IMG/VR virus record: IMGVR_UViG_3300034053_000043
Span: 1-56,633 of that record
Direction: 5' to 3' (one strand)
Length of the DNA: 56,633 bases
DNA from: a virus
Taxonomy: Duplodnaviria > Caudoviricetes
Shown: piece by piece, positions 4,753-29,699 of the stretch
Layout of the letters: every line of letters starts with the position of its first letter
Numbering within the stretch: the stretch's first letter is position 1
Notes under the pieces: generated by a model
Database searches by the model: none
The model's input: the letters and a program-made list of their open reading frames with translations, nothing else
What the model was told of the DNA's origin: nothing
Position numbers and translations under genes: made by a program

Positions 4753-4762
4753 CGGCTACGGC

Positions 4763-4799
4763 TGCGACTTTTCATGGTTGCGGTAATGACGTGTTGTGC
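4763..4799 (+). mobile_element. attI-like cassette entry site A
   Basis: TGCGACTTTTCATGGTTGCGGTAATGACGT-GTTGTGC; 32/33 identical to the reverse complement of 26519-26551; TAAN-N5-GTT geometry. Confidence 0.55.
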
Positions 4800-5326
4800 C
4801 GCTCGGGGTCCGCCGCCATGAATGCGGCGCGCTGCATCACGTCGATGGCGGCCACCGCGGCGGCGGCTCGCTCGGGCACGTCGTGCCAGCTCCAGCGCGT
4901 AAGCGGCGGCTCAGGCCCGCGCAGCGCCACGGCCGTGCGGTTTAGCAGGCCCGCCATGCGCTCGCGCAACGCCTCGTTCTCGTCCAGGTCGCGGCGCGCC
5001 TCCTCCAGCGCGTCTGCCGCCTCAAGCAGCAACCTGTCTTTGCTGGGCACCACGCGCACGCACGCCACTACATAGCCGGCAAACTGGCTGTCCGGGAAGC
5101 GTCGCTTGTGGTCTGCCAGCCATTCCCGTGCCTCGCGCTCAGGGCTCATCGTTTCCGGCCACGAGTAGGCCATGCAATAGCTGCCGTCTTCGGGGCTCTG
5201 CACGCGCCATTCGTCATACCCACTGCAGGCGCCGCGAAGTCGCTCCACCAGCGGCACAACTGGTCGCTCAACCGGAGTGCCGCCGGCATCCGGCTTCTGT
5301 TCGCGTTGCTTGGTCATGGGCGTCAC
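4772..5326 (-). CDS. hypothetical protein in a single attC cassette
   Basis: 184 aa; N-terminus encoded by the attC; coiled-coil C-terminus. Confidence 0.7.
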   Translation of the reverse strand: MTPMTKQREQKPDAGGTPVERPVVPLVERLRGACSGYDEWRVQSPEDGSYCMAYSWPETMSPEREAREWLADHKRRFPDSQFAGYVVACVRVVPSKDRLLLEAADALEEARRDLDENEALRERMAGLLNRTAVALRGPEPPLTRWSWHDVPERAAAAVAAIDVMQRAAFMAADPERHNTSLPQP

Positions 5327-5347
5327 CCGGTTACCTTTGCGTTCCTC
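5254..5347 (+). mobile_element. attC-like site
   Basis: GCACAAC-N5-GCTCAACC...GGTTACC-N5-GTTCCTC; GCGGCACAAC is the perfect complement of GTTGTGCCGC at 4793. Confidence 0.75.
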
Positions 5348-8112: not shown

Positions 8113-8398
8113 GCCAAGCGTCCTTCGTACTCCACTGCTGTCTTCTTTGTTCGCCACCGTCAACACCCTCTCATCTAGCGCTCTGCCTTAATCCCTGACC
8201 TTTGGTGAGCGGACCCAGCCGTGCCTAGCTGAGCCTTCACTACTGACCTTCGGAGCCACGTAGACCCGCCAGCCGTTCGACGCTGGGGCGCTAGCTTCGC
8301 CACCCCGATCCCCTGCTTCCGCGTCTTGCCACCAGTAGGGGTGTCGTGTCCATGGTGCTGGTGCCTGCTTCGCGTCCACCATGGTCATCGAGATCGCG

Positions 8399-9253
8399 TC
8401 ATGAAACAGGCTCCGTTTGCGTGGCGTCCATCATCAGCGATGCAACTTCAAACAGACCGCGCGCCTGATGTAGATCGTTGGCGTCATGTCCTACTGTGCC
8501 GGCCATGCAGTAGCGGAGCCCTGTGGCCTGTGCAGCTCGCTCGCCTGCTTTGCTTTCGTCGTTGTCCGCAAAGATCAGTGCATCACCGCTGATGAGGCTT
8601 GCAACATGCGTCAGATTGCCGGCGCTAAAACAGATCAAAACGGCATCGCGCAGTCGCAGCATACGTAATGCTAATTCAACTGTTAGCCCTGTGGCAAACC
8701 CCTCGACAAGCCATGTCCTACTAGATCGCTTATCACCAAGCCTGAACACCGCACCTTTCGCGCGCATGCCTGGGAGCATCTTCTTTTCGTGCCTCATCTC
8801 ATCAGGCAACCACTTGATGATTTGCGCCCCGACAACGGCGTTTGTGTCGAAGTGCCGCATCGGAACTAGCAACGACTCGTCAGGAAGGACTAGCCCGTGC
8901 GCGTCGTGAAAGCCTTTGTTTTGAAGGTAGCTATGCGGGCCTTGCTTGGCGGATTTGATTAGCTCCACGGCCTTTGCAGAGGCCCTGGCCCACCCTTCCC
9001 GCATGCGCGACTCATGCTGCGCAACCTTCGCATGGATGCGTGCCATATCTGCCGGCTTCGCTTCTGCGTCAGGGCGCCAAACATCAACATCAACCATCGT
9101 CGCGTGGTTCTGCGCAAAGCCAACATCGCCAAGCCACTTGTACGCGCCATTGCGCTTGCGCGGATGATCTGTTGTCGGGACGCGAACCCATCGGCCAGGC
9201 ACAAGCGAATCTACGATCAGCCCGTGGGTGCGGCAAAACTCAATGAACGTCAT
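8399..9253 (-). CDS. TOPRIM DNA primase (TraC/P4 alpha-like)
   Basis: LVEGFATG, FSAGNL, ADND and DAND motifs. Confidence 0.85.
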   Translation of the reverse strand: MTFIEFCRTHGLIVDSLVPGRWVRVPTTDHPRKRNGAYKWLGDVGFAQNHATMVDVDVWRPDAEAKPADMARIHAKVAQHESRMREGWARASAKAVELIKSAKQGPHSYLQNKGFHDAHGLVLPDESLLVPMRHFDTNAVVGAQIIKWLPDEMRHEKKMLPGMRAKGAVFRLGDKRSSRTWLVEGFATGLTVELALRMLRLRDAVLICFSAGNLTHVASLISGDALIFADNDESKAGERAAQATGLRYCMAGTVGHDANDLHQARGLFEVASLMMDATQTEPVS

Positions 9254-10797
9254 GCCGCGCGCCTGCCAATCGACTTTGAGTAGGCAATGTTCTTTGCCTT
9301 GATCTTGTTCATCACGTTCTTCGTGATTTCAACGCCAGGCGTTGTCGCCACACGCCATGTGGACGGCGGCTCTGATCCTGTGATGTCGCGGTAAATGAAG
9401 CGGGCTCTAGCCTGTTGCTTTTCAGGCGCGCTATGTGCTCTCGCGTAGGTCGATACCTGAGCCCACACATGCTCCCGGTCCTCGCCCATCTTCTTCCCGC
9501 CGAGCATTACGATCTCGCGCATCTCGCCGGCCGTTGCCTCGACAAGTGATAGCCGCTTGGACTCGTGCCCACAGGCCATGCAACGCTTGGTAAATGGCTT
9601 GTGTCCGCAGGCTGGGCACCCCTTGGGTTCCTTGTCTTCGTCGCCGTCCTTGCGGATTGTCTTGTCTAGCTTCTCGCCAGCGTCAAGCTCATCAAGGCCA
9701 TTGAAATAGATGGACTCGAAGTCCTCACGAAAGCGAATGATGTTCCCGCTGAAGTCCAGCAGGATGCAGTCCGTCTTGCCCGTGTCAGGCGAGCACCTAA
9801 GCCCACGTCCCCACATTTGAATGGCGGTAGAAAGCGACTTACGCAACGGCCTCGCGTCAGCGACGCAGCCAACGTCCGGGACGTCAAAGCCCTTTGCAAG
9901 CGCCTCGACGCTCACCAAAACACGCAAGCGAGAGTTGGGCTTGCGGTATTCATCAAGCATTGCCTTACGCTCTGCTGGCGTTGTATTTGCGGTGAACACC
10001 GAAGCCATCGTGCCGGCTTCGTTGAACTGCCTGCACAGTTCCTCGCAGTGAGCGATGGTCGCGCCGAACACAATGGTCTTGCGGCCCTCGCCGTGCTTTG
10101 CCCACTCGCTTACAACGTCGCCAACGATGCCCATGCCTCGCTCGGCCGCTGCACGATCGGTCCACTCGCCACCCTTAGTCTCGGCCCCAGTCATGTCGGG
10201 CCGAGTGCATGACAGCACACGCATCGGCACCAAGACGCCAGACTGCGTGAGGTCGTGCATCGTGGTGGCGTTGACAAGGCGTGTAAACAGCTTGCCGAGC
10301 CCTGTTGAAAACGGAGTCGCGCTGAGTCCGACAACGGCGGCCCTGCATGTCGGGATGTGGTCGACCCATGCCGCCATCTGTGTGTGGGCTTCGTCGATGA
10401 TGATGACATCGGCGTCAGGCCACTCCCTGCGCGCTATGGTCTGAGCGCTGGCGATCTGGAATGGCATGTCACGATTCGCGCGCCAGTGCTGCGCCTGCAT
10501 CACGCCGTGCGCGCTCAGCCCATAGCGGTCCGCCGCCTCGCTTGTCTGGTTGATGAGCGTTGTACGGTCACAGACGAACACAGCCCGCTTGCCGCGCAGC
10601 AAGGCCTCGTGAGCCACGCGCAAGCCTAGGTAGCTCTTTCCGGCGCCTGTCGGGGCCATTAGCATTTGGCACCGATGCCCAGCCCTTATGCCGTTTCTGA
10701 GCGCCTCATGTGACGACTCTTGAAATGGCCTCGGCGGCGGGAAGCATGCCGAAGCGTAGTTCGGCCGGTCCTCCGGGAATAGCGGCTCGACGCTCAC
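9250..10797 (-). CDS. SF2 DEAH helicase (RadD/UvsW-like) with zinc finger
   Basis: APTGAGKS, DEAH, SATP, GFDVPD, QMWGRGLR, CxxC. Confidence 0.9.
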   Translation of the reverse strand: MSVEPLFPEDRPNYASACFPPPRPFQESSHEALRNGIRAGHRCQMLMAPTGAGKSYLGLRVAHEALLRGKRAVFVCDRTTLINQTSEAADRYGLSAHGVMQAQHWRANRDMPFQIASAQTIARREWPDADVIIIDEAHTQMAAWVDHIPTCRAAVVGLSATPFSTGLGKLFTRLVNATTMHDLTQSGVLVPMRVLSCTRPDMTGAETKGGEWTDRAAAERGMGIVGDVVSEWAKHGEGRKTIVFGATIAHCEELCRQFNEAGTMASVFTANTTPAERKAMLDEYRKPNSRLRVLVSVEALAKGFDVPDVGCVADARPLRKSLSTAIQMWGRGLRCSPDTGKTDCILLDFSGNIIRFREDFESIYFNGLDELDAGEKLDKTIRKDGDEDKEPKGCPACGHKPFTKRCMACGHESKRLSLVEATAGEMREIVMLGGKKMGEDREHVWAQVSTYARAHSAPEKQQARARFIYRDITGSEPPSTWRVATTPGVEITKNVMNKIKAKNIAYSKSIGRRAA

Positions 10798-21635: not shown

Positions 21636-21941
21636 ATGACACCGCAACAGGCATACGAAAAACGCTATGCGTCCGTAGACAACGGCGCACATACCTGGGC
21701 CGTGGCGCCACGGCATGTGCAAGACATTTGGATGGCCGCGTGGACCATTGCTAGCGCGATGCACACTGCCGAGGAACGGGAGCGCTGCGCCAAGCTGTGC
21801 GACGAGTGGGCGCGCATCTGCGACAGCGGCAAACGCCACGGCGCCAAGGTAGGCGCGCAGGAATGCGCAAGGCTGATTCGCACAGTAGACGACGCCGATA
21901 ACAGCGAAGGCTCTGCCAAGAATCACGGGCTTGAGCCATGA
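21636..21941 (+). CDS. hypothetical protein
   Basis: AAGGA RBS; ERERCAKLC motif. Confidence 0.65.
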   Translation: MTPQQAYEKRYASVDNGAHTWAVAPRHVQDIWMAAWTIASAMHTAEERERCAKLCDEWARICDSGKRHGAKVGAQECARLIRTVDDADNSEGSAKNHGLEP

Positions 21942-22162
21942 CGCGACCGGACTATTGCCCTATTGGCGGGCAACCCTGCCAGTCGATGTGTGTTGAGAAA
22001 TGCAGCGTGCTCAACAAGACCTGCGACACATGCAACGCCAGTCATGCAAACACGGTGCCGCGCATGGTGCGCTGCGGTACATGCGTGGCGACGGAAGCTG
22101 GCAACACAAAGTGGCGACCAAATGGCGAGCCTAACGCTGCCGGTAAGGCGCCGGCCCGCTAG
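21938..22162 (+). CDS. Cys-rich hypothetical protein
   Basis: ATGA coupling; stop codon lies inside the attC. Confidence 0.55.
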   Translation: MTRPDYCPIGGQPCQSMCVEKCSVLNKTCDTCNASHANTVPRMVRCGTCVATEAGNTKWRPNGEPNAAGKAPAR

Positions 22163-22192
22163 GGCCGGTCGCCCTTGACCGGCGTGTTAGGC
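22129..22192 (-). mobile_element. attC site
   Basis: - strand: GCCTAAC-N5-GGTCAAGG...CCTTACC-N6-GTTAGGC; canonical spacing with the extra C in L''. Confidence 0.9.
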
Positions 22193-22217
22193 CCCACCGT
22201 GAACGAAAGCACTGACG

Positions 22218-22439
22218 ATGGCACGCAAGAGATTCAGGTGGACGCGCAAAGCCTACAAGCAGGCCGACTGGATGGCGCGCTTCTACGGCCGGCATATCTA
22301 CGAGCTGCCGGAGCGACCACCACCGCTGCTGCAACGGTACTTTGCCCTGTGGGAGCGCCACAGACAGAACGATGACCCACTGCTGGTGCCGCTGCGCCAG
22401 CGGCCTGGATACGCTGACGATGACGGGATACCGTTTTAG
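22218..22439 (+). CDS. hypothetical protein
   Basis: ORF ending DDDGIPF. Confidence 0.6.
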   Translation: MARKRFRWTRKAYKQADWMARFYGRHIYELPERPPPLLQRYFALWERHRQNDDPLLVPLRQRPGYADDDGIPF

Positions 22440-22447
22440 GAGGAACG

Positions 22448-22651
22448 ATGGCTGACGGACACATCACCGTGACGATTGACAACCCTGACGTGGTGGCAGA
22501 CGCGGTGCGTTTCCGCTGGCTGTGCCTGCACCCAGACTGGCACTTTATCGAGCGCCTGTGCCGCGAGTTCGCGGCCGACAGCGGCGCCGCATTTTTGAAC
22601 GAGATGCGCCGCGTGATTGACGCGCGCCGCTCGGTGGAACTGGACCCCTAG
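22448..22651 (+). CDS. hypothetical protein
   Basis: GGAGG RBS; DAVRFRWL. Confidence 0.65.
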   Translation: MADGHITVTIDNPDVVADAVRFRWLCLHPDWHFIERLCREFAADSGAAFLNEMRRVIDARRSVELDP

Positions 22652-22659
22652 TAAGCGAC

Positions 22660-22974
22660 ATGACCAAGCATACCGAGAACAGCGAGCGCGGCCAGCCGTT
22701 GGGGCTCCCGTTGAACGACGGGTTAGGCCCGCTGCCTCCAGGCAATGAGCCGTGGTGCTTTGCGTACACCAGCGCCGACATGAAGGCCTATGCGCTGGCC
22801 GAAGTGCGCAAAGCCGTGGACGCAGAGCGCGAGCGGTGCGCCAAACTGTGCGAGCCAACAAGGCCGCGTCCTTGCAACTGCGAGCGCTGCGACTGCGGGA
22901 ACGCGACCGACGCCCGCATGGTTGCGGAGTGGGACGAAGCGGCTGCGATGGCGCGGCGCATTCGTGGTGCCTAA
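22660..22974 (+). CDS. hypothetical cassette protein
   Basis: N-terminus encoded by the attC half-site; TAA stop inside GCCTAAC. Confidence 0.65.
   Translation: MTKHTENSERGQPLGLPLNDGLGPLPPGNEPWCFAYTSADMKAYALAEVRKAVDAERERCAKLCEPTRPRPCNCERCDCGNATDARMVAEWDEAAAMARRIRGA
22696..22728 (-). mobile_element. attC half-site (R'' and L'' only)
   Basis: + strand CGTTGAAC-N5-GTTAGGC; partner arm absent. Confidence 0.6.
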
Positions 22975-23037
22975 CGACCTAGCTAAGCCGCCTGGCGCGG
23001 CTTTATGCGACAGGTCGGCTTGAGCGACGAGTTGGCC
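22969..23037 (-). mobile_element. attC site
   Basis: + strand GCCTAAC-N6-GCTAAGC...GCTTGAGC-N5-GTTGGCC. Confidence 0.9.
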
Positions 23038-23054
23038 GGCACCGGAGATAGACG

Positions 23055-23807
23055 ATGGATTATGTGATTTCAGCGAGCTACGGAAACGACAGCATGGCGA
23101 TGATGCAGTGGGCGCACGAACACGGCCTGCAAGGCGTGACGGTTGCCTACTGCGACACCGGCTGGGCCGCGCCTGGCTGGGAACTGCGCGTAGCAGAAGG
23201 CGAGGCGCTGGCGCTGCGCCTGGGGTTCGCAACGGTGCAACTGCAAAGCATGGGCATGGAAGCGCTGGTGCGGATGAAAAAAGGCTTCCCCGGCAACGGG
23301 CAGCAGTTCTGCACCGCATGGCTGAAAGGCTTGCCTTTCCTTCAATGGATCGACGAGGCCGACCCGGAGCGCACGGCGGTTGTGATGGTGGGCAAGCGCC
23401 GCGACGAGAGCGAGAACCGCAAGGACACGCCGGAATGGATTGAGGCGAGCGAATACCATGGCGAGCGCCGGCTGTGGCACCCGCTCTACCTGCACTCGGA
23501 CGGCGACCGCGATGCACTGCTGACGCGCGCAGGCGTGAAGAAGCTACCGCACCGGAGCGACGAATGCAGCCCATGCGTGAATGCGAACCGCGACGATCTG
23601 CGGCGGTTGAGCGGCCGGCAGATTGGCAAGACGGCCGCACTCGAAGCCGATGTAGGGCAGCCGATGTTCCGCGCCGCGAAGCACGGCGGGGCGGTAGGAA
23701 TTGAGCAGGCCATCCAGTGGGCGAAATACTCACCTGGGCAATACAAGCCCGGCATGGATGACCTTTTTGTGGTCGGCTGCGGCTCGCCCTTCGGGTGCGG
23801 AACGTGA
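23055..23807 (+). CDS. PAPS reductase-family (PP-loop) protein
   Basis: SASYGNDS PP-loop, CDTGW, FCTAWLK, GKRRDES..R, C.PC, GCG. Confidence 0.8.
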   Translation: MDYVISASYGNDSMAMMQWAHEHGLQGVTVAYCDTGWAAPGWELRVAEGEALALRLGFATVQLQSMGMEALVRMKKGFPGNGQQFCTAWLKGLPFLQWIDEADPERTAVVMVGKRRDESENRKDTPEWIEASEYHGERRLWHPLYLHSDGDRDALLTRAGVKKLPHRSDECSPCVNANRDDLRRLSGRQIGKTAALEADVGQPMFRAAKHGGAVGIEQAIQWAKYSPGQYKPGMDDLFVVGCGSPFGCGT

Positions 23808-23808
23808 C

Positions 23809-23866
23809 GGCCAACGTTTGACATAACCGGCAGCCGGAGGCTGTCCGGTTGATGGAATGGTTATGT
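23809..23866 (-). mobile_element. attC site
   Basis: + strand GGCCAAC-N6-CATAACC...GGTTGATG-N5-GTTATGT. Confidence 0.9.
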
Positions 23867-23885
23867 GTCTGGTGGAGGAAACAAG

Positions 23886-24077
23886 ATGCCAATTGAATGC
23901 GAGAAACTGAGGAACGCGCCATACGCCAGAGAGAAGTGCAAGCACTGCGGCGAGCCGTTTCCTGAATTCATGCGCGGCGAGGTTCAAAGTGGGTGGCGTC
24001 GCTTATTTGGGCTGGCTTACTGCGCGGTGATCTGTCACAAGTGCAAGCGGCTCACTGGGTGGGAGAAACCACGATGA
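23886..24077 (+). CDS. small zinc-finger protein
   Basis: GGAGG RBS; two CxxC. Confidence 0.65.
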   Translation: MPIECEKLRNAPYAREKCKHCGEPFPEFMRGEVQSGWRRLFGLAYCAVICHKCKRLTGWEKPR

Positions 24078-24301
24078 AGAAGGCGAGCCATTGCGACGAG
24101 TGCAAGCATGCAAGCGTGAAGTGGTTTTTGTATCGCGGGCCGCCTGCATTCGATGTGCTCACATGCGCGAAGAAACACAAGCCACGTTTCTACCAGCCGA
24201 AAAGCAACCCGCACGATTGCAACTGGGGATGGAAGCGAGTGTGCAACGAGTTCGAGACACATAACGTCCGAGGTAAGCCGCGCCGCCAGGCGTCGGCTTG
24301 A
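24074..24301 (+). CDS. Cys-rich hypothetical protein
   Basis: ATGA coupling; reads into the attC. Confidence 0.6.
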   Translation: MKKASHCDECKHASVKWFLYRGPPAFDVLTCAKKHKPRFYQPKSNPHDCNWGWKRVCNEFETHNVRGKPRRQASA

Positions 24302-24315
24302 GCGAAGTGTTAGGC
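24259..24315 (-). mobile_element. attC site
   Basis: + strand ACATAAC-N6-GGTAAGC...GCTTGAGC-N5-GTTAGGC. Confidence 0.9.
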
Positions 24316-24375
24316 AGCATTAGCGCCGGAGCGCGCCATTGTTTGCAGTGTTACAACTTTCTTTTGCTAGACCCC

Positions 24376-24404
24376 TTGCGGATGTTTGATTGTCGTACTA
24401 CAGT
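24376..24404 (+). promoter_or_regulatory. cassette-internal sigma70-like promoter
   Basis: TTGCGG-17 bp-TACAGT in an AT-rich gap. Confidence 0.5.
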
Positions 24405-24437
24405 ACACCCATCGACACACCAACCCGGAGACAGCAA

Positions 24438-24617
24438 ATGAACGGCTTTCAAGTTAACCAAATCGTCGCAGGCAAGTTCGGCAAGTTCGTGATCCTGGCC
24501 TTTCGCACCATCGGCGGCGAACAGTACGCGCAGGTGAAGGAGTACGACGAAGTGACTGGCAAAACTCGGCGCGGCGAAATGTCCCTGCCGCTGACCGCGC
24601 TAAAGGCGGTGGCGTGA
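24438..24617 (+). CDS. small beta-rich hypothetical protein
   Basis: GGAG RBS. Confidence 0.65.
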   Translation: MNGFQVNQIVAGKFGKFVILAFRTIGGEQYAQVKEYDEVTGKTRRGEMSLPLTALKAVA

Positions 24618-24781
24618 TGCGAGGCGGCCCAGGGCGAGGCCAGGGGCGAAAGCCCCTGCCGGCAGAAGAGGCCACCAAGCCGCGCAGCGTGCGATTGAAC
24701 GATGCGCGCTGGGAAAAGTTGAAGCGCCTTGGGGCTGAGTGGCTGGCGCGACAAATTGACAAAGCAAAGGAGCCGCAGTGA
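24617..24781 (+). CDS. 54-aa RHH-like DNA-binding protein (below the ORF track cutoff)
   Basis: MRGGPGRGQGRKP...RSVRLNDARWEKLKRLGAEWLARQID; TGATG/GTGA coupling. Confidence 0.7.
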   Translation: MRGGPGRGQGRKPLPAEEATKPRSVRLNDARWEKLKRLGAEWLARQIDKAKEPQ

Positions 24782-25302
24782 CTGAACCTGTTGCATGGAT
24801 GGTCGTCAACAACGACGGACGAGACGCTTTTGTCACAGCCGACCCGCTGCTGGCAAATGTCAATCTAGGCCAGCGTGCGCTGCCACTTTACGCGGCGCCA
24901 GTGATGGACACCTGCGCGAACGTGCGCAGCAGCAGGCCAACCAGTGGCGGCGGCTTTGTGGAACGCGAGCTTGCAGTGGCGCGTGGCCTGGCAGCGTGCC
25001 GTGGTGACGATGCGCGACTTGACGAAGCCGACACCGAACTAGCCGACCTTCGGCAAGCGTGCCGCGAGGGCTGGCGCTACGCGGCCGAACTGGAAGAGGA
25101 ACGCAAGCGCCTGCAAGCCGAGCTTGACCGCATGAAGCGATACGCGGCCGTGGCGTTGGACGTTTGCACCACGTTCTCAGAAGAAATGGGGGATGGCGGG
25201 CATTGGCTGCCGCGCTGGAAGGTGCTTGCGGTATTCGCCACGCAAGAGGCGGCGACGGCACTGGCCGACACGCTGCGCCGGCCGGCTGTTGATGCTGCAT
25301 AA
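24778..25302 (+). CDS. hypothetical protein
   Basis: EPVAW...PLYAAP motif; TAA stop inside GCATAAC. Confidence 0.7.
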   Translation: MTEPVAWMVVNNDGRDAFVTADPLLANVNLGQRALPLYAAPVMDTCANVRSSRPTSGGGFVERELAVARGLAACRGDDARLDEADTELADLRQACREGWRYAAELEEERKRLQAELDRMKRYAAVALDVCTTFSEEMGDGGHWLPRWKVLAVFATQEAATALADTLRRPAVDAA

Positions 25303-25389
25303 CGTTCAAGGTAACAGGCCGCCGCGTGACCAAGGTTGAGTAAACGAGACGAGCTTATTTCGGCGGTCCTGTTGACCGCAATGTTAGCC
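25297..25389 (-). mobile_element. attC site
   Basis: + strand GCATAAC-N6-GGTAACA...TGTTGACC-N5-GTTAGCC. Confidence 0.88.
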
Positions 25390-25413
25390 GGCTGGTGGCT
25401 ACGAAGAAAAGGA

Positions 25414-26052
25414 ATGACGATGGCGGAGAAAATCACTATTGGAAATGCCGAGTTGTGGCACGGAGACTGCCGCGAAGTGCTGCCGGTGTTGCCAGCGTGC
25501 GACCTGATTTTGACCGACCCACCGTATGGAATTGGCGCAGACAAGGTGAAGGCGCATAGCTCGATACGGGACAACGAAGCATGGGAGAAAGCCGATTGGG
25601 ACAACGCGACGCCGCCGGCTTGGGTGTTCGGCTTGATGCGAGAGAAGGCCGGCACGCTCATGGTTTGGGGCGGCAACTACTTTGCCGACATGCTGCCGGC
25701 CACAAGCGGGTGGCTGTGCTGGCGGAAGCCCGAAGCAGAAACAGGGTTTTCACTCGCCGACATTGAACTGTGCTGGACGAGCCTGAGCTTTGCCGCCCGA
25801 ACCAAGACGCTGCCGCGCCGAGACGGAAACGAACACCCGACGCAAAAGCCGGTGGCGCTGATTGAATGGGCGATGACGTTCGCGCCGAAGGCGGAAACGG
25901 TTTGCGACCCGTATATGGGGAGCGGGACGACCGGCGTAGCGTGCGCCAACATGGGTAAACAGTTTGTCGGGATTGAACGCGAACGCCGGTACTTTGATAT
26001 TGCCTGCGAGCGGATTGCCCGCGCACAGGCACAAGAGCGGCTGTTCGCATGA
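25414..26052 (+). CDS. DNA adenine/N4-C methyltransferase (beta class)
   Basis: TDPPYG, HPTQKPV, DPYMGSGTT. Confidence 0.92.
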   Translation: MTMAEKITIGNAELWHGDCREVLPVLPACDLILTDPPYGIGADKVKAHSSIRDNEAWEKADWDNATPPAWVFGLMREKAGTLMVWGGNYFADMLPATSGWLCWRKPEAETGFSLADIELCWTSLSFAARTKTLPRRDGNEHPTQKPVALIEWAMTFAPKAETVCDPYMGSGTTGVACANMGKQFVGIERERRYFDIACERIARAQAQERLFA

Positions 26053-26056
26053 AGAC

Positions 26057-26169
26057 GGCTAACGCAAAGTTGACCGGGAGCCAACGCGATGACCAATGAA
26101 CACCCCGAAGCGCGCGACGGCGCGCAGACCGCCGAGCCGTTGGCTCTCCGGTCGAACGACCAGTTAGGC
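26057..26169 (-). mobile_element. attC site containing the start codon of the next gene
   Basis: + strand GGCTAAC-N5-GTTGACC...GGTCGAAC-N5-GTTAGGC; ATG at 26089 is in the variable region. Confidence 0.85.
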
Positions 26170-26520
26170 CCGCTGGTGGATCGGCTGCGGGGGTGCGTGA
26201 CGATGAAGCACGAGACGGCCTTGATGCGCGATGCTGCCGATGCGCTTGCCGACCTGTGGCTTGAGCACCGCGCGCTGCTGGAGAAGCACAACAACCTTCA
26301 CATGAATGCATATCGGCTGCGCCGCGAGAACGAGACACTCCGACGCGGGCCTTGGATCGGCAGGTGCCAAGCATGCGGACACGAGCACGAAGTGCCGAAG
26401 GAAGAGGCGCGCTTACTGAGTGATGCGCTGCAGGCGCTGTGCCACTACCGAGCGCAGACGCGCCCGATTGCAGACTGCGACGCGGTGATTGATCGGCTGA
26501 GTGCCGTGCTTAGGGCCTAA
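26089..26520 (+). CDS. hypothetical cassette protein
   Basis: TAA stop inside GCCTAAC; N-terminus encoded by the attC. Confidence 0.7.
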   Translation: MTNEHPEARDGAQTAEPLALRSNDQLGPLVDRLRGCVTMKHETALMRDAADALADLWLEHRALLEKHNNLHMNAYRLRRENETLRRGPWIGRCQACGHEHEVPKEEARLLSDALQALCHYRAQTRPIADCDAVIDRLSAVLRA

Positions 26521-26551
26521 CACGTCGTTACCGCAACCATGAAAAGTCGCA
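26515..26551 (-). mobile_element. attI-like cassette entry site B
   Basis: - strand TGCGACTTTTCATGGTTGCGGTAACGACGT-GTTAGGC; no hairpin; near-identical to 4763-4795. Confidence 0.55.
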
Positions 26552-26901
26552 AGCGCAACCGTAGCCGCTGGGCACACGTCAACAACCCGGACGGGCTGCG
26601 TCGCCGCAGGGCCAAGGCCGACGCGCGCCGCGAGGCCATTGCCGCCACCCTGCCGCCTGCCTACGCACCACCCGTGCCACTGACCCACTGGCAGCGCATC
26701 GTGATCGACCTGTACGTGCCGACTGGCGGCCGATGCGACCAGCACGCGACGATGATCGACGACGAGCGGGTGGGCCTGCTGTCGGCGACGGAGATTGCGA
26801 CCAAGGTGCGCGCCCTGATCCGCAAGCGGCCCAGCGTGACGGCGCAGGCAGAGAGTCGGCGCGACGAGTGGCGCGAGGCGGCGCGCAGCCAGCTTGCATG
26901 A
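26539..26901 (+). CDS. hypothetical protein
   Basis: ATGA-coupled to the xis-like gene. Confidence 0.6.
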   Translation: MKSRKRNRSRWAHVNNPDGLRRRRAKADARREAIAATLPPAYAPPVPLTHWQRIVIDLYVPTGGRCDQHATMIDDERVGLLSATEIATKVRALIRKRPSVTAQAESRRDEWREAARSQLA

Positions 26902-27095
26902 TTGGAACATTGATGGAAGACCTAGCAGACATCCCCACAATCGCACGCATCCTGGGCGCGTCAGTCCGCACCGTGCGGGACCGCTACGTGCACGCGCCTG
27001 GCTTCCCGCCGCCTGCGATTGCGCCGAGTTCGCGCAAGCGCAAGTGGAAGATCAGTGAGGTGATGGGGTGGGCGAAGCCGAAGGAGAAGCCGTGA
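26898..27095 (+). CDS. AlpA-like excisionase / recombination directionality factor
   Basis: IARILGASVRTVRD...PGFPPP...KWKISEVMGW. Confidence 0.75.
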   Translation: MIGTLMEDLADIPTIARILGASVRTVRDRYVHAPGFPPPAIAPSSRKRKWKISEVMGWAKPKEKP

Positions 27096-27466
27096 GCGAC
27101 TACATCAAACAGCCTGACGTGCCGGGCCACCCAGAGCCGCACACCATGACGTGGAGCGAGATGGAGCTCGGCGCGCTGCATCTGTACGGGCGCGAGTGCT
27201 ATGAGGCCGGCAAGCAGGAGCAGCTCCGCATTGAGCAATCCGCCAGCCACCGGAACTGGATGCTGCTGGCTTTCCGTGCGCTGAACGACACCGATGGCGT
27301 GCTGCAAACCATCGTGCCAGAAAGTAGCTCCGAAGAACGAAAGCTCGCTGAACTGCGAGATCGCGTGCAGTCGCTTGCGATTCAGGTGCCGACGTTGCTC
27401 GGCATGACATACGCTGGTGCTGATAGCGCAGCGGCGCAGAGGGTCAATTTGAGGCGGGGGAGGTAA
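27092..27466 (+). CDS. hypothetical protein
   Basis: GTGA coupling, AAGGAG RBS. Confidence 0.65.
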   Translation: MSDYIKQPDVPGHPEPHTMTWSEMELGALHLYGRECYEAGKQEQLRIEQSASHRNWMLLAFRALNDTDGVLQTIVPESSSEERKLAELRDRVQSLAIQVPTLLGMTYAGADSAAAQRVNLRRGR

Positions 27467-27489
27467 AGAAACGAACGCGGCTGTTCCTC

Positions 27490-27514
27490 GGTCGGCTGCA
27501 CCGTAGGGTTAGAA
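27490..27514 (-). mobile_element. attC half-site
   Basis: + strand GCTGCACC-N5-GTTAGAA; GTTAGAACGCGC pairs 11/12 with GCGCGCTCTAAC at 27735. Confidence 0.55.
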
Positions 27515-27539
27515 CGCGCCATTGCTACGGAGAAAGACA

Positions 27540-27782
27540 ATGCACATTGAATGCTGTCCGCATTGCGGCGGGAGACTGAACGAGCCGGAAATCAAGCGCC
27601 CGGAAGGCTGCGTTTGTGACCACATGGAATGGGGCGATCCGTACAACCTGCCGCCCGTTTGCGACAAGTTCGAGGGCGACAAGATCGGCGGTAACTGCAC
27701 CCGCTGCGAGCACGATTACGAGTGCCACGCGGAAGCGCGCTCTAACGCCAAAGGCGAGGCACGGCAAGAACCGAAGGAGTGA
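27540..27782 (+). CDS. Cys-rich hypothetical protein
   Basis: GGAG RBS; several CxxC/CxH. Confidence 0.65.
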   Translation: MHIECCPHCGGRLNEPEIKRPEGCVCDHMEWGDPYNLPPVCDKFEGDKIGGNCTRCEHDYECHAEARSNAKGEARQEPKE

Positions 27783-27829
27783 ACATGGAACAGAAGCCAG
27801 AGGCCGTTGCCTCGACCGCCCAGTTGGGC
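27740..27829 (-). mobile_element. attC site
   Basis: + strand CTCTAAC-N6-GGCGAGG...CCTCGACC-N5-GTTGGGC. Confidence 0.8.
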
Positions 27830-27848
27830 CTGTAGCCGGAGCGTGACC

Positions 27849-28109
27849 ATGGCCGAATACCTACTGATTGCCGCCGCCCTGGTAGCCGCCATTGCTGCGG
27901 CTGTGCGCTGGTGGTTCTGGCGCGACTACAAAGCCAAACACGCCGACGCGCTGCTGTTCATGACGCACACACCGCACGCCTTCCAGTCGGGCAAGCTGCA
28001 CGACGGCAAGGTCATCACGCGGCTGGTGCAGGTGGCGCCGACCGCACTGGCGAACGGCGGCCGGGCGCCATGCTGGGAGGTGTATGGAAGGCCCAACGCC
28101 ACCCGATAA
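27849..28109 (+). CDS. membrane-anchored hypothetical protein
   Basis: GGAG RBS; N-terminal TM segment. Confidence 0.65.
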   Translation: MAEYLLIAAALVAAIAAAVRWWFWRDYKAKHADALLFMTHTPHAFQSGKLHDGKVITRLVQVAPTALANGGRAPCWEVYGRPNATR

Positions 28110-28145
28110 GCCGCCCGAAGGGTCGGCTTGATTGATCTGTTCGGC
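28091..28145 (-). mobile_element. attC site
   Basis: + strand GCCCAAC-N7-GATAAGC...GCTTGATT-N5-GTTCGGC. Confidence 0.8.
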
Positions 28146-28159
28146 CGGCGCCTCAACCA

Positions 28160-28387
28160 ATGGACAAAATGAGCAAGCAATTCAAACTGCCGAGCGGCAA
28201 ATTCACGGCGAGCACACGGCGATACCTGAGCGAGTGGAGGAAGCTCACGGATGCCGTTGAGCAGAGGTTAGGCGCTCGCGTGTATGCCTTCGATCCTGGC
28301 GTGGCCGTGAGCCTGCCTGATGGGCGCGGTGGGTGCTCTCTGCCGCTGTGGGTGGCGCAGAAGATCGCCGATCTGCCTACCGCCTAG
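28160..28387 (+). CDS. hypothetical protein
   Basis: Last early-operon ORF; overlaps the int 3' end. Confidence 0.6.
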   Translation: MDKMSKQFKLPSGKFTASTRRYLSEWRKLTDAVEQRLGARVYAFDPGVAVSLPDGRGGCSLPLWVAQKIADLPTA

Positions 28388-29390
28388 CCGCGAACTGCGC
28401 CGCAATGTCGGCGGCTGTGTCTCGGTAGTAGACCGCCAAAAGCAAGCTCAGATCCTTGTGGCCGCTGACGCGCGCGAGCTGCATCGGGTTCATGCGCCGA
28501 GACATGCTTGTCAGCGCAGTGCCGCGCGAGTCGTGATAGTGCGCGTCCGTCACCAGCGCCTGCTTCGACATCTTGCGGAACAGCGCATCTAGGCTTGACG
28601 GCGACAGGTGGATCAGCTTGTCATCAGTCGCGGCCACAAGCACGCCCAGCACCCGAGCGCCGGCCGGAGTCAGCGGCACCTGGCGCTTTCCGACAACCTC
28701 CAGCGTCTTGTGCTGCGTCAGCGTCACCACGCGCCGCTGCAAATCGACAGACTCGCGCGTCAGGCTCAGCACTTCGCCGGCCCTCATGGCGGTCCTCAGC
28801 GACACGAGAAAAGCCCACGCAACGGCCTGTAGGCCAGTCCTGGGTGGCTTGCCGCTGACGAACCCGCAGCGCCGCATGATGCGTCGAATCTCGCGCCAGC
28901 CGTAGAGCCGATCCCTGGGCGCGTTGTCGCCCGGCATCCTCAGAGCCCGCCACGGGCTTGGATCAGGCGTCCACCCCCATTCCTTGGCCGCAATCGTCCA
29001 GACGTTGCGCAGCGTGCCAATCTCACGCTGCACAGACCCCGGCGTGACGCGCTTGAGTCTTGCATCCCGCCATACGGCAAGATCCGCCGTCGTCACTTCG
29101 CTGATGATTTTGCCGGCAAGCGCGGGGTTGTCTCGCGCGAATGCTGCCAGGCGCAGACCCTCGGGCCTGGCACCGCGCTTTGTCGAGCTGACCTCGGCCA
29201 CGTATTTGTCGATGGCGTCGGCGACAGTCTTGCTCGGCCATCGACTCAGGGCGCCGGACAGGATCGCGGCCTCTTCCTGGGCCGCCCACTGGGTGGCGGC
29301 AGACTTGGTTGGCAGCGTGGCTGACTTGCGGACGCCTTTGCGCTCGATCTGGACTTGCCAGCCGTTGGGTGTCTTGCGGACGTGGGCCAC
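28377..29390 (-). CDS. int: phage tyrosine integrase (Rci/HP1-like)
   Basis: TAMRAGE, HYHDSR, SGHKD, YY catalytic residues; GTG start. Confidence 0.9.
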   Translation of the reverse strand: MAHVRKTPNGWQVQIERKGVRKSATLPTKSAATQWAAQEEAAILSGALSRWPSKTVADAIDKYVAEVSSTKRGARPEGLRLAAFARDNPALAGKIISEVTTADLAVWRDARLKRVTPGSVQREIGTLRNVWTIAAKEWGWTPDPSPWRALRMPGDNAPRDRLYGWREIRRIMRRCGFVSGKPPRTGLQAVAWAFLVSLRTAMRAGEVLSLTRESVDLQRRVVTLTQHKTLEVVGKRQVPLTPAGARVLGVLVAATDDKLIHLSPSSLDALFRKMSKQALVTDAHYHDSRGTALTSMSRRMNPMQLARVSGHKDLSLLLAVYYRDTAADIAAQFAARR

Positions 29391-29583
29391 TTCGGGATGC
29401 TCTAGGGATCTGGGCGGGATGCCGTCCCGATCATGCGTGACTTCGTGCGACGTTCTACATAGGTAAAGTGCGCTTGTGCGCGCTTTTGTTGGGGCGTATG
29501 CGTCACTGGTACTGGTGCACCCGGCCTGCACCGTATGTATTGTCAGCATTGAGGTTTTCGGCGCACTTCGGGATTTTCTAGGG
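29388..29583. promoter_or_regulatory. attP-like site
   Basis: Direct repeats CACTTCGGGATnnTCTAGGG (29388, 29564) flank GGTGCA-N7-TGCACC (29514-29532). Confidence 0.65.
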
Positions 29584-29699
29584 GCCGCGCCTACAATTAG
29601 CCCGAGGGTCAAGCGCAGCGCGCAGGGTTGGGGCTACCTGGCCGCCCTCGCCTACAGGCAGCTTACTGCATCCTGTGCCGGCAACACATACAATCGAGG

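What the first reader, a model, noticed from the sequence alone, without database searches (positions are those of the whole stretch)
22129..28145. Every attC is inverted relative to its gene, and the sites double as coding and translation signals
Seen: the extra L-box base and the 5-nt spacer lie in the right arm on the coding strand, so the sites are canonical only on the non-coding strand. This holds in both the + operon and the - operon (5254). Stop codons fall in the TAAC (22974, 25302, 26520). Start codons lie inside the attC variable region (26089, 5326/5317, AAGGAG-N5-ATG at 27785), giving related N-termini (PLALRSNDQLGPL, PLGLPLNDGLGPL, GTPVERPVVPL). Established: bacterial cassettes usually carry the ORF in the same orientation as attC. 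Inference: this is a phage-adapted cassette class expressed from phage promoters and antisense to Pc when parked in a host integron.
Basis: partly seen in the sequence, partly recalled or inferred. Interest (0 to 1): 0.78.

Follow-up and report, generated by a model that had tools for sequence, protein, structure and literature searches.

The report
Mirror-image integron cassettes in a phage
A temperate phage carries a row of integron-type recombination sites between its accessory genes, all turned the opposite way round from bacterial integrons, and the same reversed arrangement recurs in many other viral contigs, pointing to a phage-side gene-cassette system.

Summary
The window is a complete 56.6-kb temperate siphovirus record. 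Between 22129 and 28145 lie nine attC-like hairpins on the + strand; a tenth lies at 5254-5347 on the - strand. In each, the coding strand is the attC bottom strand: RYYYAAC, 6-nt spacer, L arm, then L arm with a bulged G, 5-nt spacer, GTTRRRY. Three controls fix this polarity. A model built on the phage strand hits the strand opposite to the cassette genes in a true IntI-linked array of a related host genome, in a class 1 aadA cassette, and in a GenBank-annotated P1 integron. Of 77 viral contigs with such sites, 65 were called coding=bottom and 4 coding=top by a noisy predictor. By homology, 23 of 75 bottom-strand cassette ORFs hit PHROGs against 0 of 75 top-strand ORFs. Hits include DNA methyltransferases, Lar-like anti-restriction proteins and PAPS reductase. 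Homology breakpoints and metagenome contigs place cassette boundaries in the left R box, so the mobile unit is attC plus the downstream ORF. Two near-complete viral genomes carry their own IntI, with cassettes reading toward it. Recombination and expression are inferred, not shown. No parked copy in a host integron was sought.

The parts
22129..22192 (+). attC-like site S1 (64 nt). The bottom strand is on the coding strand. The stop codon of ORF 21938-22162 lies in its loop.
   Evidence: R1 59.2 bits; fold -29.9 on the coding strand against -27.4 kcal/mol on the other
22668..22728 (+). Degenerate site S9. Only the right arm (L''-spacer-GTTAGGC) is kept. It lies inside the N-terminal coding part of ORF 22660-22974.
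   Evidence: R1 14.1 bits, E 0.36; right-arm regex hit at 22711; contigs of run X4 share only 22688-22729
22969..23037 (+). attC-like site S2 (69 nt). The TAA of its left R box is the stop of ORF 22660-22974. It heads the PAPS-reductase cassette.
   Evidence: R1 65.5 bits; homologous sites in L002 and L006
23055..23807 (+). PAPS-reductase-like gene, the cargo of cassette 22975-23814
   Evidence: PF01507 1.6e-05 and phrog_424 6.8e-24; DNA homology to L001/L002 is limited to 22990/23018..23800/23816
It heads a cassette with two small Cys-rich ORFs (23886-24077, 24074-24301).
   Evidence: R1 54.8 bits; a contig of run X1 diverges upstream of 23813, inside the AAC of its R box
24259..24315 (+). 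attC-like site S3 (57 nt), 81% identical over 55 nt to a class 1 aadA attC read on the strand opposite to aadA
   Evidence: R1 65.8 bits; contigs from three runs (X1, X3, X4) end or diverge at 24267
25297..25389 (+). attC-like site S4 (93 nt). The TAA of its R box is the stop of ORF 24778-25302. It heads the methyltransferase cassette.
   Evidence: R1 45.8 bits, not a seed
25420..26052 (+). N6/N4 DNA methyltransferase, cassette cargo
   Evidence: PF01555 1.2e-19, phrog_67 5.4e-44
26057..26169 (+). attC-like site S5 (113 nt). The ATG of ORF 26089-26520 lies in its variable loop, and its right arm encodes ...LRSNDQLGPL.
   Evidence: R1 39.5 bits, not a seed
26515..26573 (+). Half-site S6. The GCCTAAC R box supplies the stop of ORF 26089-26520. 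It is followed by a junction block shared with the - strand copy near 4760-4810. No right arm is present.
   Evidence: alignment A4; no + strand R1 hit
27740..27829 (+). Weak attC-like site S7 (90 nt) with AAGGAG-N5-ATG in the loop, opening a 16-codon ORF (27785-27835)
   Evidence: R1 18.0 bits, E 0.04
28091..28145 (+). attC-like site S8 (55 nt), the last of the array. The stop of ORF 27849-28109 lies in its L arm. ORF 28160-28387 and the phage integrase (28377-29612, -) follow.
   Evidence: R1 52.3 bits; integrase phrog_1 4.6e-39, no NCBIfam hit at E<=1e-10 and no TIGR02249 match at E<=0.001 in the record, so not an IntI
5254..5347 (-). attC-like site S10 in the leftward operon, with the bottom strand again on the coding (-) strand. 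The start of ORF 5326/5317-4772 lies in its loop.
   Evidence: R1 32.1 bits on -; neighbouring - strand genes have PHROG hits

Best explanation
Region 22.1-28.1 kb is a cluster of genuine integron-type attC sites with no integron integrase in the record (a CALIN). It sits in the accessory end of the rightward early operon of a temperate siphovirus, which is probably betaproteobacterial (inferred). One more site lies in the leftward operon.

The sites have mirror polarity: the strand that IntI recombines (the bottom strand, cleaved in 5'-AAC-3' of the left R box) is the coding strand. The mobile unit is therefore [most of an attC + downstream ORF(s) + RYYYAA]. The attC travels on the 5' side of its gene. 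It often supplies the ribosome-binding site and start codon in its variable loop. The ORF often ends flush with the cassette end, at the TAA of the next R box.

Such units are exchanged among phages by an integron integrase. That integrase may be the host's (IntI-positive genomes occur in the candidate host class) or, in some relatives, the phage's own. The phage operon promoter reads through the array, and in IntI-bearing relatives toward intI.

Shown: site identity, polarity, its recurrence in many viral contigs, cassette-like mosaic boundaries in the left R box, and the phage-borne IntI.

Inferred: that IntI catalyses the exchanges; that polarity is kept by selection, either for expression from phage operons or for a fork- or transcription-exposed bottom strand; and that much of the cargo is counter-defence.
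For: Site identity.
- Over 280 distinct viral-contig sites the consensus is GCCTAAC...GTTAGGC and the median length is 66 nt. The coding strand folds 1.68 kcal/mol more stably (230 of 280) and is G-rich (244 of 280). These are the bottom-strand traits described by Nivina 2016.
- The bulged G is invariant in 11 of 11 aligned sites, and a second bulged T lies 7 nt further in.

Polarity controls.
- R1 hits 7 of 7 sites on the strand opposite to the cassette ORFs next to a true IntI (TIGR02249, 492 bits) in genome G002.
- R1 hits the strand opposite to aadA in class 1 integron L099.
- S3 aligns to the strand opposite to an annotated aadA CDS in MH445380.

Gene strand in the window.
- Erf, Gam-like, PAPS reductase and the methyltransferase are all on +.
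- 17 of 18 site flanks in the window, and 47 of 52 with relatives L001, L002 and L006, are called on the site's strand.
- L006 and the window carry sites on both strands, and polarity flips together with the operon.

Survey.
- 265 R1 sites lie in 77 viral loci, and no locus has sites on both strands.
- The flank predictor gives coding=bottom 332, top 41, ambiguous 140. By locus: 65 bottom, 4 top, 8 unclear.
- In 75 cassette intervals drawn at random from 138 eligible, 23 of 75 bottom-strand ORFs and 0 of 75 top-strand ORFs hit PHROGs at E<=1e-6.
- The same pattern in bacterial genomes gives 26 top, 8 bottom, 22 ambiguous. Two bacterial loci called bottom on both flanks (L155, L157) are not near an IntI.

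Cassette boundaries.
- Where both partners have a site at the end of a homology block, 12 of 20 5' ends start within -2..+3 nt of the start of the upstream site. All 5 of 5 3' ends stop short of the end of the downstream site.
- In the window, contigs from other metagenomes carry 23813-24267 with different flanks that diverge inside or 2 nt past the AAC of S2b and S3.

Integrase.
- L002 comes from a 37-kb record with direct terminal repeats, rated 100% complete. L113 comes from a record rated 99% complete that has a terminase. Both encode IntI (473 and 449 bits against a cut-off of 265) directly downstream of, and co-directional with, their arrays.
Against: - No recombination, excision circle or transcript was observed; everything rests on sequence comparison.
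- The window has no IntI. None of the 5 viral records with the largest arrays has one either.
- The GC3-based strand predictor is noisy. It mis-called the class 1 integron L099 as 'bottom' and gave mixed calls on the true array L033.
- The cruder longest-ORF test gives only 118 bottom against 60 top out of 178 intervals.
- 52 of the 75 sampled cassettes have no homology evidence on either strand.
- Several homology blocks begin inside or after the upstream site rather than at its R box (8 of 20). Much of the clean 5' signal comes from one widespread attC-methyltransferase cassette.
- One S2-type attC lies upstream of PAPS reductase in the window but downstream of it in L006. One joint in run X2 links the end of S1 to 24395, not to an R box. 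Exchange is therefore not always at the R box.
- The viral contigs are not phylogenetically independent, and the retrieval pattern covers only one attC subfamily.
Confidence: 0.7

Rival explanations
1. Polarity is set by replication, not by expression. The arrays are oriented so that attC bottom strands lie on the lagging-strand template of forks leaving an origin between the divergent early operons. This maximises hairpin folding and cassette turnover. It would be the opposite of bacterial chromosomal integrons, which are recalled (not read here) to keep bottom strands on the leading-strand template. This rival concerns why the polarity exists. It accepts that the sites are real attC sites.
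For: The site strand flips with the operon on either side of about 12 kb in the window (S10 on -, S1-S8 on +) and likewise in L006. Replication genes (primase, helicase) sit at 8.4-10.8 kb. Cumulative GC skew has its minimum near 12 kb.
Against: In this genome transcription and the presumed fork direction coincide, so the data cannot separate the two. GC skew equally tracks the coding strand. No origin has been mapped. The geometry in L002, with cassettes reading toward intI, is explained directly by expression from an upstream operon promoter.
Confidence: 0.2
2. The hairpins now work mainly at the RNA level. They would act as intercistronic structures that couple or gate translation: the stop lies in the left arm and the start in the loop. 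Alternatively they protect the mRNA. On this view their attC ancestry is exapted and IntI no longer acts on them.
For: The coding strand carries the more stable fold, so the mRNA would form it. The TAA of the left R box ends the upstream long ORF at 71 of 283 sites. A start codon for an ORF of at least 50 aa lies inside 35 of 68 long sites, against 24 of 215 short sites. No IntI is present in the window or in 5 of 5 records with the largest arrays.
Against: An RNA role does not explain conservation of the DNA-recombination features (RYYYAAC/GTTRRRY cores, bulged bases at fixed spacing). It does not explain cassette boundaries falling in the AAC, or IntI genes abutting arrays in L002 and L113. 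The two roles are not exclusive.
Confidence: 0.12
3. Passive relic. One bacterial cassette array, or a few, was captured once by an ancestral phage. The sites are decaying leftovers between ordinary phage genes, and the uniform polarity reflects shared ancestry only.
For: Degenerate sites exist in the window: S9 keeps only a right arm, S6 is a half-site and S7 is weak. L001 has a decayed left R box. PAPS-reductase genes in 8 of 13 compared loci have no adjacent site.
Against: A captured bacterial array would carry its genes on the top strand. Here the homology-supported genes are on the bottom strand (23 against 0). Polarity flips with operon direction within single genomes. The same cassettes occur in different contexts with junctions in R boxes. 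The 77 loci span 44-74% site GC, and many share no other DNA (165 of 168 aligned locus pairs align over less than 35% of their length).
Confidence: 0.08
4. The sites are not attC at all. They would be an unrelated palindromic repeat family, such as REP-like elements or intrinsic terminators, that resembles attC by chance.
For: Rfam gave no attC-type match at gathering thresholds. This may only mean that no such family is in the library.
Against: The model built from these sites finds bona fide IntI-linked and class 1 attC sites at 24-52 bits. S3 is 81% identical to an aadA attC. None of the 9 + strand sites is called terminator-like, and the region shows no terminator excess (5 found, 6.7 expected).
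Confidence: 0.03

Closest known systems
[quoted passage not shown]
   Same: The site architecture is the same: RYYYAAC/GTTRRRY cores, unpaired spacer, L box with extrahelical bases, variable loop, 51-126 nt. Sites are directly repeated with spacings of 0.4-1.6 kb. Relative to intI, where one is present, the bottom strand is on the intI coding strand and the array lies 5' of intI (L033 and L099 compared with L002 and L113).
   Different: The cassette ORFs are on the bottom strand. The attC therefore precedes its ORF, the genes read toward intI rather than away from it, and a Pc-type promoter at the intI end could not express them. The array sits inside a phage early operon. The window itself has no IntI and no recognised attI.
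CALINs and integrons reported in phage genomes (Qi et al. 2023, PMC9892861; outline, passages and section 3.4 read)
   Same: attC clusters in temperate and virulent phages. DNA methyltransferases recur as cargo. That paper shows IntI1 recombining 5 of 6 tested phage attC sites.
   Different: In what I read, that paper describes phage arrays as having the structure typical of bacterial arrays and does not report a systematic reversal of ORF against attC polarity. It found 17 CALINs in 10,705 isolate genomes. Here one attC subfamily alone gives at least 119 stretches in IMG/VR. Its supplementary tables were not available to me and may hold orientation data.
Reverse-oriented cassettes within bacterial chromosomal integrons (for example toxin-antitoxin cassettes with their own promoters). 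Recalled from general knowledge; Nivina 2016 only mentions 'few exceptions' that carry promoters.
   Same: The ORF lies on the attC bottom strand of an otherwise normal cassette.
   Different: In bacteria these are scattered exceptions inside canonical arrays. Here whole arrays are of this type, and they are co-transcribed with a phage operon.
'Inverted-integrase' or reverse integrons such as that of Treponema denticola
   Same: intI and the cassette genes point the same way.
   Different: There, as I recall, intI itself is flipped and lies upstream of canonical ORF-attC cassettes. In L002 and L113 the geometry of intI, attI side and attC is canonical, and it is the ORFs that are reversed.

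Membership tests
integron attC recombination site | Inverted core sites 5'-RYYYAAC ... GTTRRRY-3' at the two ends | tested here: met
   The window sites read GCCTAAC/GTTAGGC or close variants. Over 280 distinct viral-contig sites, AAC and GTT are present in 279-280, and the consensus is GCCTAAC...GTTAGGC.
integron attC recombination site | Single strand folds into R-box stem, unpaired central spacer, L-box stem and variable terminal structure; length about 50-150 nt | tested here: met
   Folds; alignment and imposed structure; lengths 55-113 nt in the window and 51-126 nt in the survey.
integron attC recombination site | Extrahelical bases on the arm opposite the cleaved AAC, near L'' (Nivina 2016) | tested here: met
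   The bulged G in the right arm is invariant in 11 of 11 sites, and a second bulged T lies 7 nt further in. Counted from the 3' end these are positions 16 and 23. The paper names the same numbers (G16, T23) for attCaadA7. That the numbering origin is the same is my inference.
integron attC recombination site | Bottom strand folds more stably and is purine/G-rich | tested here: met
   Mean difference -1.68 kcal/mol, with 230 of 280 sites more stable on the modelled strand; GC skew +0.106, positive in 244 of 280. In the window 6 of 8 sites are more stable on the coding strand.
integron attC recombination site | Likeness to sites of proven integrons | tested here: met
   R1 finds 7 sites beside a true IntI (24-44 bits) and the aadA attC of a class 1 integron (51.9 bits). 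S3 is 81% identical over 55 nt to an attC in MH445380.
integron attC recombination site | Recombined by an integron integrase, with crossover in the AAC of the bottom strand | not testable with these tools
   Only indirect evidence: homology and contig breakpoints fall at the left R box.
canonical integron gene cassette (ORF followed by its attC, ORF on the top strand) | ORF co-oriented with the attC top strand, so that Pc can express it | tested here: not met
   Window genes with family hits are on the bottom strand. In the survey, 23 of 75 bottom-strand ORFs hit PHROGs against 0 of 75 top-strand ORFs.
complete integron | intI gene and attI adjacent to the array | tested here: not met
   No TIGR02249 match in the window's record. 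The window's integrase has no NCBIfam hit at E<=1e-10. The feature is met in relatives L002 and L113 for intI. attI is only guessed in L002.
CALIN | Two or more attC sites close together, without an integron integrase | tested here: met
   Nine sites within 6 kb and no IntI in the record.
intrinsic terminator / REP-like repeat | GC-rich hairpin followed by a T run (terminator) | tested here: not met
   None of the 9 + strand sites is called; 5 terminator-like matches in the region against 6.7 expected.

The most novel reading that the evidence does not exclude
Phages run their own mirror-image integron system. It would be a pool of counter-defence and accessory cassettes (methyltransferases, Lar-like anti-restriction proteins, PAPS reductases, many unknowns), each carrying its attC as a portable 5' leader. 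The cassettes would be shuffled between phage genomes by host or phage-encoded IntI during the SOS response, the same response that induces the prophage. The reversed polarity would insulate expression: a cassette moving between a phage array and a bacterial integron arrives antisense to the resident promoter. Phage and host cassette pools would then share one recombinase but not each other's genes.
Probability: 0.45. Interest if true: 0.9.

Novelty: new variant of a known kind. Interest (0 to 1): 0.8.

Why it matters
Integrons are known as bacterial gene-capture platforms and, more recently, as stores of anti-phage defence cassettes. attC clusters in phages have been reported, but as imports that look like bacterial arrays.

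A consistent reversal of gene against attC polarity changes that picture. It is seen in dozens of viral contigs, including complete genomes with their own IntI. It would mean that phages keep a separate cassette class adapted to phage operons.

Three consequences follow.
- It offers a mechanism for the mosaic turnover of phage accessory and anti-restriction genes.
- It predicts a built-in expression barrier between phage and host cassette pools.
- It provides many examples of attC-ORF units in which the attC supplies translation signals, which bears on the open question of how cassettes are born.

All three can be tested with standard attC x attI assays and strand-aware censuses.

Tried and rejected
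- Rfam at gathering thresholds gave no attC-type family.
- Megablast of 20-30 kb against isolate phages found nothing. A distant search with S3 found only the P1 class 1 integron, so the pattern is so far seen only in metagenomic viral contigs.
- A rigid regex and pairing scanner found only 4 of the window's sites and sat at the background level of shuffles. An MFE-based scanner was too noisy. Both were dropped in favour of the covariance model.
- The GC3-based flank predictor is kept only as a rough measure. It mis-called L099 and gave mixed calls on L033.
- The longest-ORF test is weak in GC-rich DNA (118 against 60).
- The genome-contig scan with PAPS reductase gave only 3 loci.
- Sequencing runs: no RNA holder was listed. 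Four DNA runs from 3 studies hold only 5-6% of the sampled words. Parts of the stretch without contig cover are not interpreted.
- GC skew cannot separate replication from transcription.
- I did not search bacterial integron arrays for phage-type cassettes parked in reverse. I did not fold or search the unknown cassette proteins.
- Literature searches found no report of the reversed polarity in phages. They cover open-access text only, and supplements were closed.

Full report
CONTEXT

The window is a whole IMG/VR virus record of 56,633 bp, rated 100% complete, with 63% G+C. It is a temperate siphovirus.
- Structural and lysis genes lie on the - strand from about 31 to 56 kb. They include terminase, portal, major head protein, tape measure and endolysin.
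- A leftward early operon holds primase, helicase, RNA ligase and HNH genes (2.6-11.9 kb, - strand).
- A rightward early operon holds HNH, two DNA methyltransferases, a helicase, Erf and a Gam-like protein (12-28.4 kb, + strand).
- A tyrosine integrase lies at 28377-29612 on the - strand.
- The only Rfam match is a Betaproteobacteria-1 sRNA.
- No integron integrase is present.
The finding covers the distal, accessory end of the rightward operon.

THE SITES

Reading the sequence shows imperfect palindromes that begin with RYYYAAC and end with GTTRRRY. I aligned 11 short examples: five from the window and six from relatives L002 and L006. I imposed the attC-type structure and built covariance model R1 on the phage coding strand.

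With filters off, R1 finds nine sites on the + strand between 22129 and 28145, and one on the - strand at 5254-5347.
- Five are seeds.
- Four are not seeds: 25297-25389 (45.8 bits), 26057-26169 (39.5), 5254-5347 (32.1) and 27740-27829 (18.0, weak).
- A right-arm remnant at 22668-22728 (14.1 bits) and a half-site at 26515 are degenerate.
- The same sites score far lower on the other strand (S1: 12.2 against 59.2 bits).
- None is terminator-like.

WHICH STRAND IS WHICH

Nivina et al. 2016 (PMC5027507; abstract and passages) give the definitions. The recombined bottom strand carries the cleaved 5'-AAC-3' in R' (RYYYAAC) at its 5' side. The extrahelical bases lie on the other arm near L''. Bottom strands fold about 2 kcal/mol more stably and are purine-rich.

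In the window the + strand reads RYYYAAC, a 6-nt spacer and the L arm, then an L arm with a bulged G (invariant in 11 of 11), a second bulged T 7 nt further in, a 5-nt spacer and GTTRRRY. The coding strand folds more stably in 6 of 8 window sites. Over 280 distinct viral-contig sites it is more stable in 230, by a mean of 1.68 kcal/mol, and G-rich in 244.

Three empirical controls agree.
1. Genome G002 is a betaproteobacterial MAG. It holds a prophage-like contig (L022) with a PAPS-reductase homologue flanked by six R1 sites on the gene's strand. It also encodes a true IntI (TIGR02249, 492 bits against a cut-off of 265). In the array next to that intI, all 7 R1 hits lie on the intI strand. The cassette-filling ORFs, including a HicB/HicA-like pair (named from my reading of the translations; no family search was run), lie on the other strand.
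2. Locus L099 is a class 1 integron with IntI1, aadA and qacEdelta1. R1 hits the attC on the strand opposite to aadA.
3. S3 aligns at 81% over 55 nt to GenBank record MH445380, on the strand opposite to an annotated adenylyltransferase CDS that ends beside the match.
R1 therefore models the bottom strand. In the phage that strand is the coding strand.

GENES

The coding strand in the finding region is + by family hits: Erf, Gam-like, PAPS reductase (23055-23807) and an N6/N4 methyltransferase (25420-26052). Codon-position statistics agree at 17 of 18 site flanks. S10 lies in the leftward operon, whose neighbouring genes have PHROG hits on the - strand.

- The TAA of the left R box is the stop codon at 22974, 25302 and 26520.
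- Start codons lie in the variable loop at 26089 and at 5317/5326.
- The ATG at 27785 opens only 16 codons.
- The related N-termini are the translated right arms. The + and - copies share DNA identity over the right arm plus about 30 nt, and over a second block at the 3' junction, while the ORF bodies between them are unrelated.

IS THE POLARITY GENERAL?

An attC-specific pattern was scanned on both strands of IMG/VR. It gave at least 119 stretches, of which 80 loci were listed. R1 at E<=1e-3 found 265 sites in 77 of those loci, and never on both strands of one locus.

- A rough flank predictor (open frame length times GC3 minus GC2) called coding=bottom 332 times, top 41 and ambiguous 140. 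By locus: 65 bottom, 4 top, 8 unclear.
- This predictor is noisy. It mis-called L099 and gave mixed calls on the true array L033.
- A longest-ORF test gave only 118 against 60 out of 178 intervals.
- I therefore used homology. From 138 eligible cassette intervals I drew 75 at random and scanned the longest ORF on each strand against PHROGs at E<=1e-6. 23 of 75 bottom-strand ORFs hit, and 0 of 75 top-strand ORFs.
- The hits come from 19 loci. They are seven DNA methyltransferases, three Lar-like restriction-alleviation proteins, a PAPS reductase, two HNH endonucleases, a DHH phosphoesterase, an FtsK-like fragment and families of unknown function.
- The same pattern was searched in 401 genomes of G002's class. 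It hit 16 genomes, and there the predictor gave 26 top, 8 bottom and 22 ambiguous. Three loci in that tally come from unpublished genomes G041 and G143; without them the tally is 23, 7 and 19.
- Two bacterial loci were called bottom on both flanks (L155, L157). Neither lies near an IntI gene. A third bottom call (L153) is on the prophage-like contig of G002.
- Five of five tested bacterial genomes with pattern hits encode an IntI-type match (four above the cut-off). In G180 the array lies in the canonical position, 8 kb from intI.

CASSETTE BEHAVIOUR

The PAPS-reductase gene shares 81-82% DNA identity with L001 and L002, but only over 22990/23018 to 23800/23816. That span runs from inside S2 to the R box of S2b, and the flanks are unrelated. 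L002 has a homologous attC upstream of the gene and a different, long attC downstream.

I compared all oriented loci with one another and kept pairs that share less than 35% of their length (165 of 168 aligned pairs). For homology blocks with a site at the boundary in both partners:
- 12 of 20 begin within -2..+3 nt of the start of the upstream site;
- 5 begin 6-20 nt before its end, and 3 begin 21-30 nt after it;
- all 5 of 5 3' ends stop short of the end of the downstream site, two of them at exactly +7.
The shared unit is thus the whole upstream attC plus the ORF, ending at the next R box. This is the mirror image of the canonical ORF-attC unit, and it is what cleavage in the bottom-strand AAC predicts.

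Much of the clean 5' signal comes from one attC-methyltransferase cassette found in at least six contigs. Two other cassette families show the same boundary.

Independent data come from Logan contigs of four DNA runs in three studies. A contig of run X1 matches the window from 23813, inside the AAC of S2b, with different sequence before it. A contig of X1 diverges after 24267, which is 2 nt past the AAC of S3. Contigs of X3 and X4 stop at the same place.

Counter-examples exist. An X2 joint links the end of S1 to 24395. An S2-type attC lies on different sides of the PAPS-reductase gene in the window and in L006.

PHAGE-BORNE INTEGRASES

A local tblastn with the G002 IntI found homologues in viral loci L002 (62.6% identity) and L113 (61%). 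Both exceed the TIGR02249 cut-off, at 473 and 449 bits.
- L002's record is 37,084 bp with direct terminal repeats and is rated 100% complete. L113's record is rated 99% complete and has a terminase.
- In both, intI lies directly downstream of the array and points the same way as the cassette genes.
- The bottom strand is on the intI coding strand and the array lies 5' of intI, exactly as in canonical integrons. The platform geometry is therefore normal and only the ORFs are reversed.
- In L002 the last cassette ORF starts in an attC loop and stops about 60 nt before the intI ATG. A TTAAC lies between them and may mark attI (a guess).
- None of the 5 viral records with the largest arrays has an IntI, including two complete genomes. 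Most arrays, like the window's, are CALINs that would depend on a host enzyme.

HOW IT MOST LIKELY WORKS

Shown: the sites are genuine attC-type sites, they have reversed polarity, the reversal recurs widely, cassette-like boundaries fall in the left R box, and some phages carry IntI.

Inferred:
- IntI, from host or phage, excises and inserts [attC+ORF] units.
- The phage operon promoter reads through them.
- The attC acts as a portable leader, which in long variants carries the start codon. A start codon for an ORF of at least 50 aa lies in 35 of 68 long sites against 24 of 215 short ones. The R-box TAA ends the upstream ORF at 71 of 283 sites.
- Polarity is maintained either because only bottom-strand ORFs are expressed from an operon that reads toward intI, or because this orientation exposes bottom strands on the lagging-strand template or the non-template strand. 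The data cannot separate these.
- The attG preprint (10.1101/2022.09.11.507474; passages) reports no orientation bias for off-site cassette insertion. A strong bias therefore implies selection or a fixed platform.

KNOWN AND NEW

CALINs and a few integrons in phages, with methyltransferase cargo and IntI1-proficient attC sites, were reported by Qi et al. 2023 (PMC9892861; outline, passages and section 3.4 read). In what I read they are described as typical arrays.

Four full-text searches, and passages of a 2024 preprint on integrons as defence biobanks, gave no report of a systematic reversed polarity or of cassettes reading toward a phage intI. Supplements were closed and subscription journals are not covered. 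I rate this a new variant of a known kind.

VERDICT

Interest 0.8.

Noticed in passing
window 8264-8386 (-): A Betaproteobacteria-1 sRNA (RF02932, 85.4 bits against a gathering score of 49.4) sits inside the phage's leftward replication operon, just downstream of the primase gene. Its role in a phage is unexplained. L005 shares 77% identity over 8200-8305.
   Followed up: no
L002 7066-8849: A complete viral genome with direct terminal repeats (G408) encodes a true integron integrase. The last cassette ORF (7111-7766) starts inside an attC loop and stops about 60 nt before the intI ATG, with a TTAAC between them that may be the attI crossover. A second tyrosine integrase follows at 9006-9995.
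   Followed up: partly
window 26515-26573 (+) and about 4760-4810 (-): The two divergent early operons share a junction block of about 55 nt (TAAC-ACGTCGTTACCGCAACC-ATGAAAAGT...). It starts a 120-aa ORF in the + copy. In the - copy it gives only an 8-codon ORF, because of a 6-nt gap and a stop.
   Followed up: partly
window 24316-24437: A non-coding stretch of about 120 nt, relatively AT-rich, lies inside the array between S3 and ORF 24438-24617. The consensus scan called no sigma-70-like promoter there. In one X2 contig S1 is joined to 24395 with 31 other letters between.
   Followed up: no
window 27785-27835 (+): A 16-codon mini-ORF with a strong Shine-Dalgarno sequence lies wholly inside attC-like site S7 and ends 14 nt before the next gene's ATG. 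It could be a leader peptide or a remnant of an attC-embedded start.
   Followed up: no
window 21938-22162, 23886-24301, 27540-27782 (+): Several cassette ORFs are small and cysteine-rich with CxxC pairs (probably zinc-binding). They have no Pfam or PHROG family, and their last residues are encoded by the next attC.
   Followed up: no
L099 (IMG/VR record) and MH445380: A class 1 integron (IntI1, aadA, qacEdelta1) occurs in an IMG/VR 'viral' record. It served as a canonical-polarity control. Some IMG/VR loci with 'top' polarity may be of this kind.
   Followed up: partly
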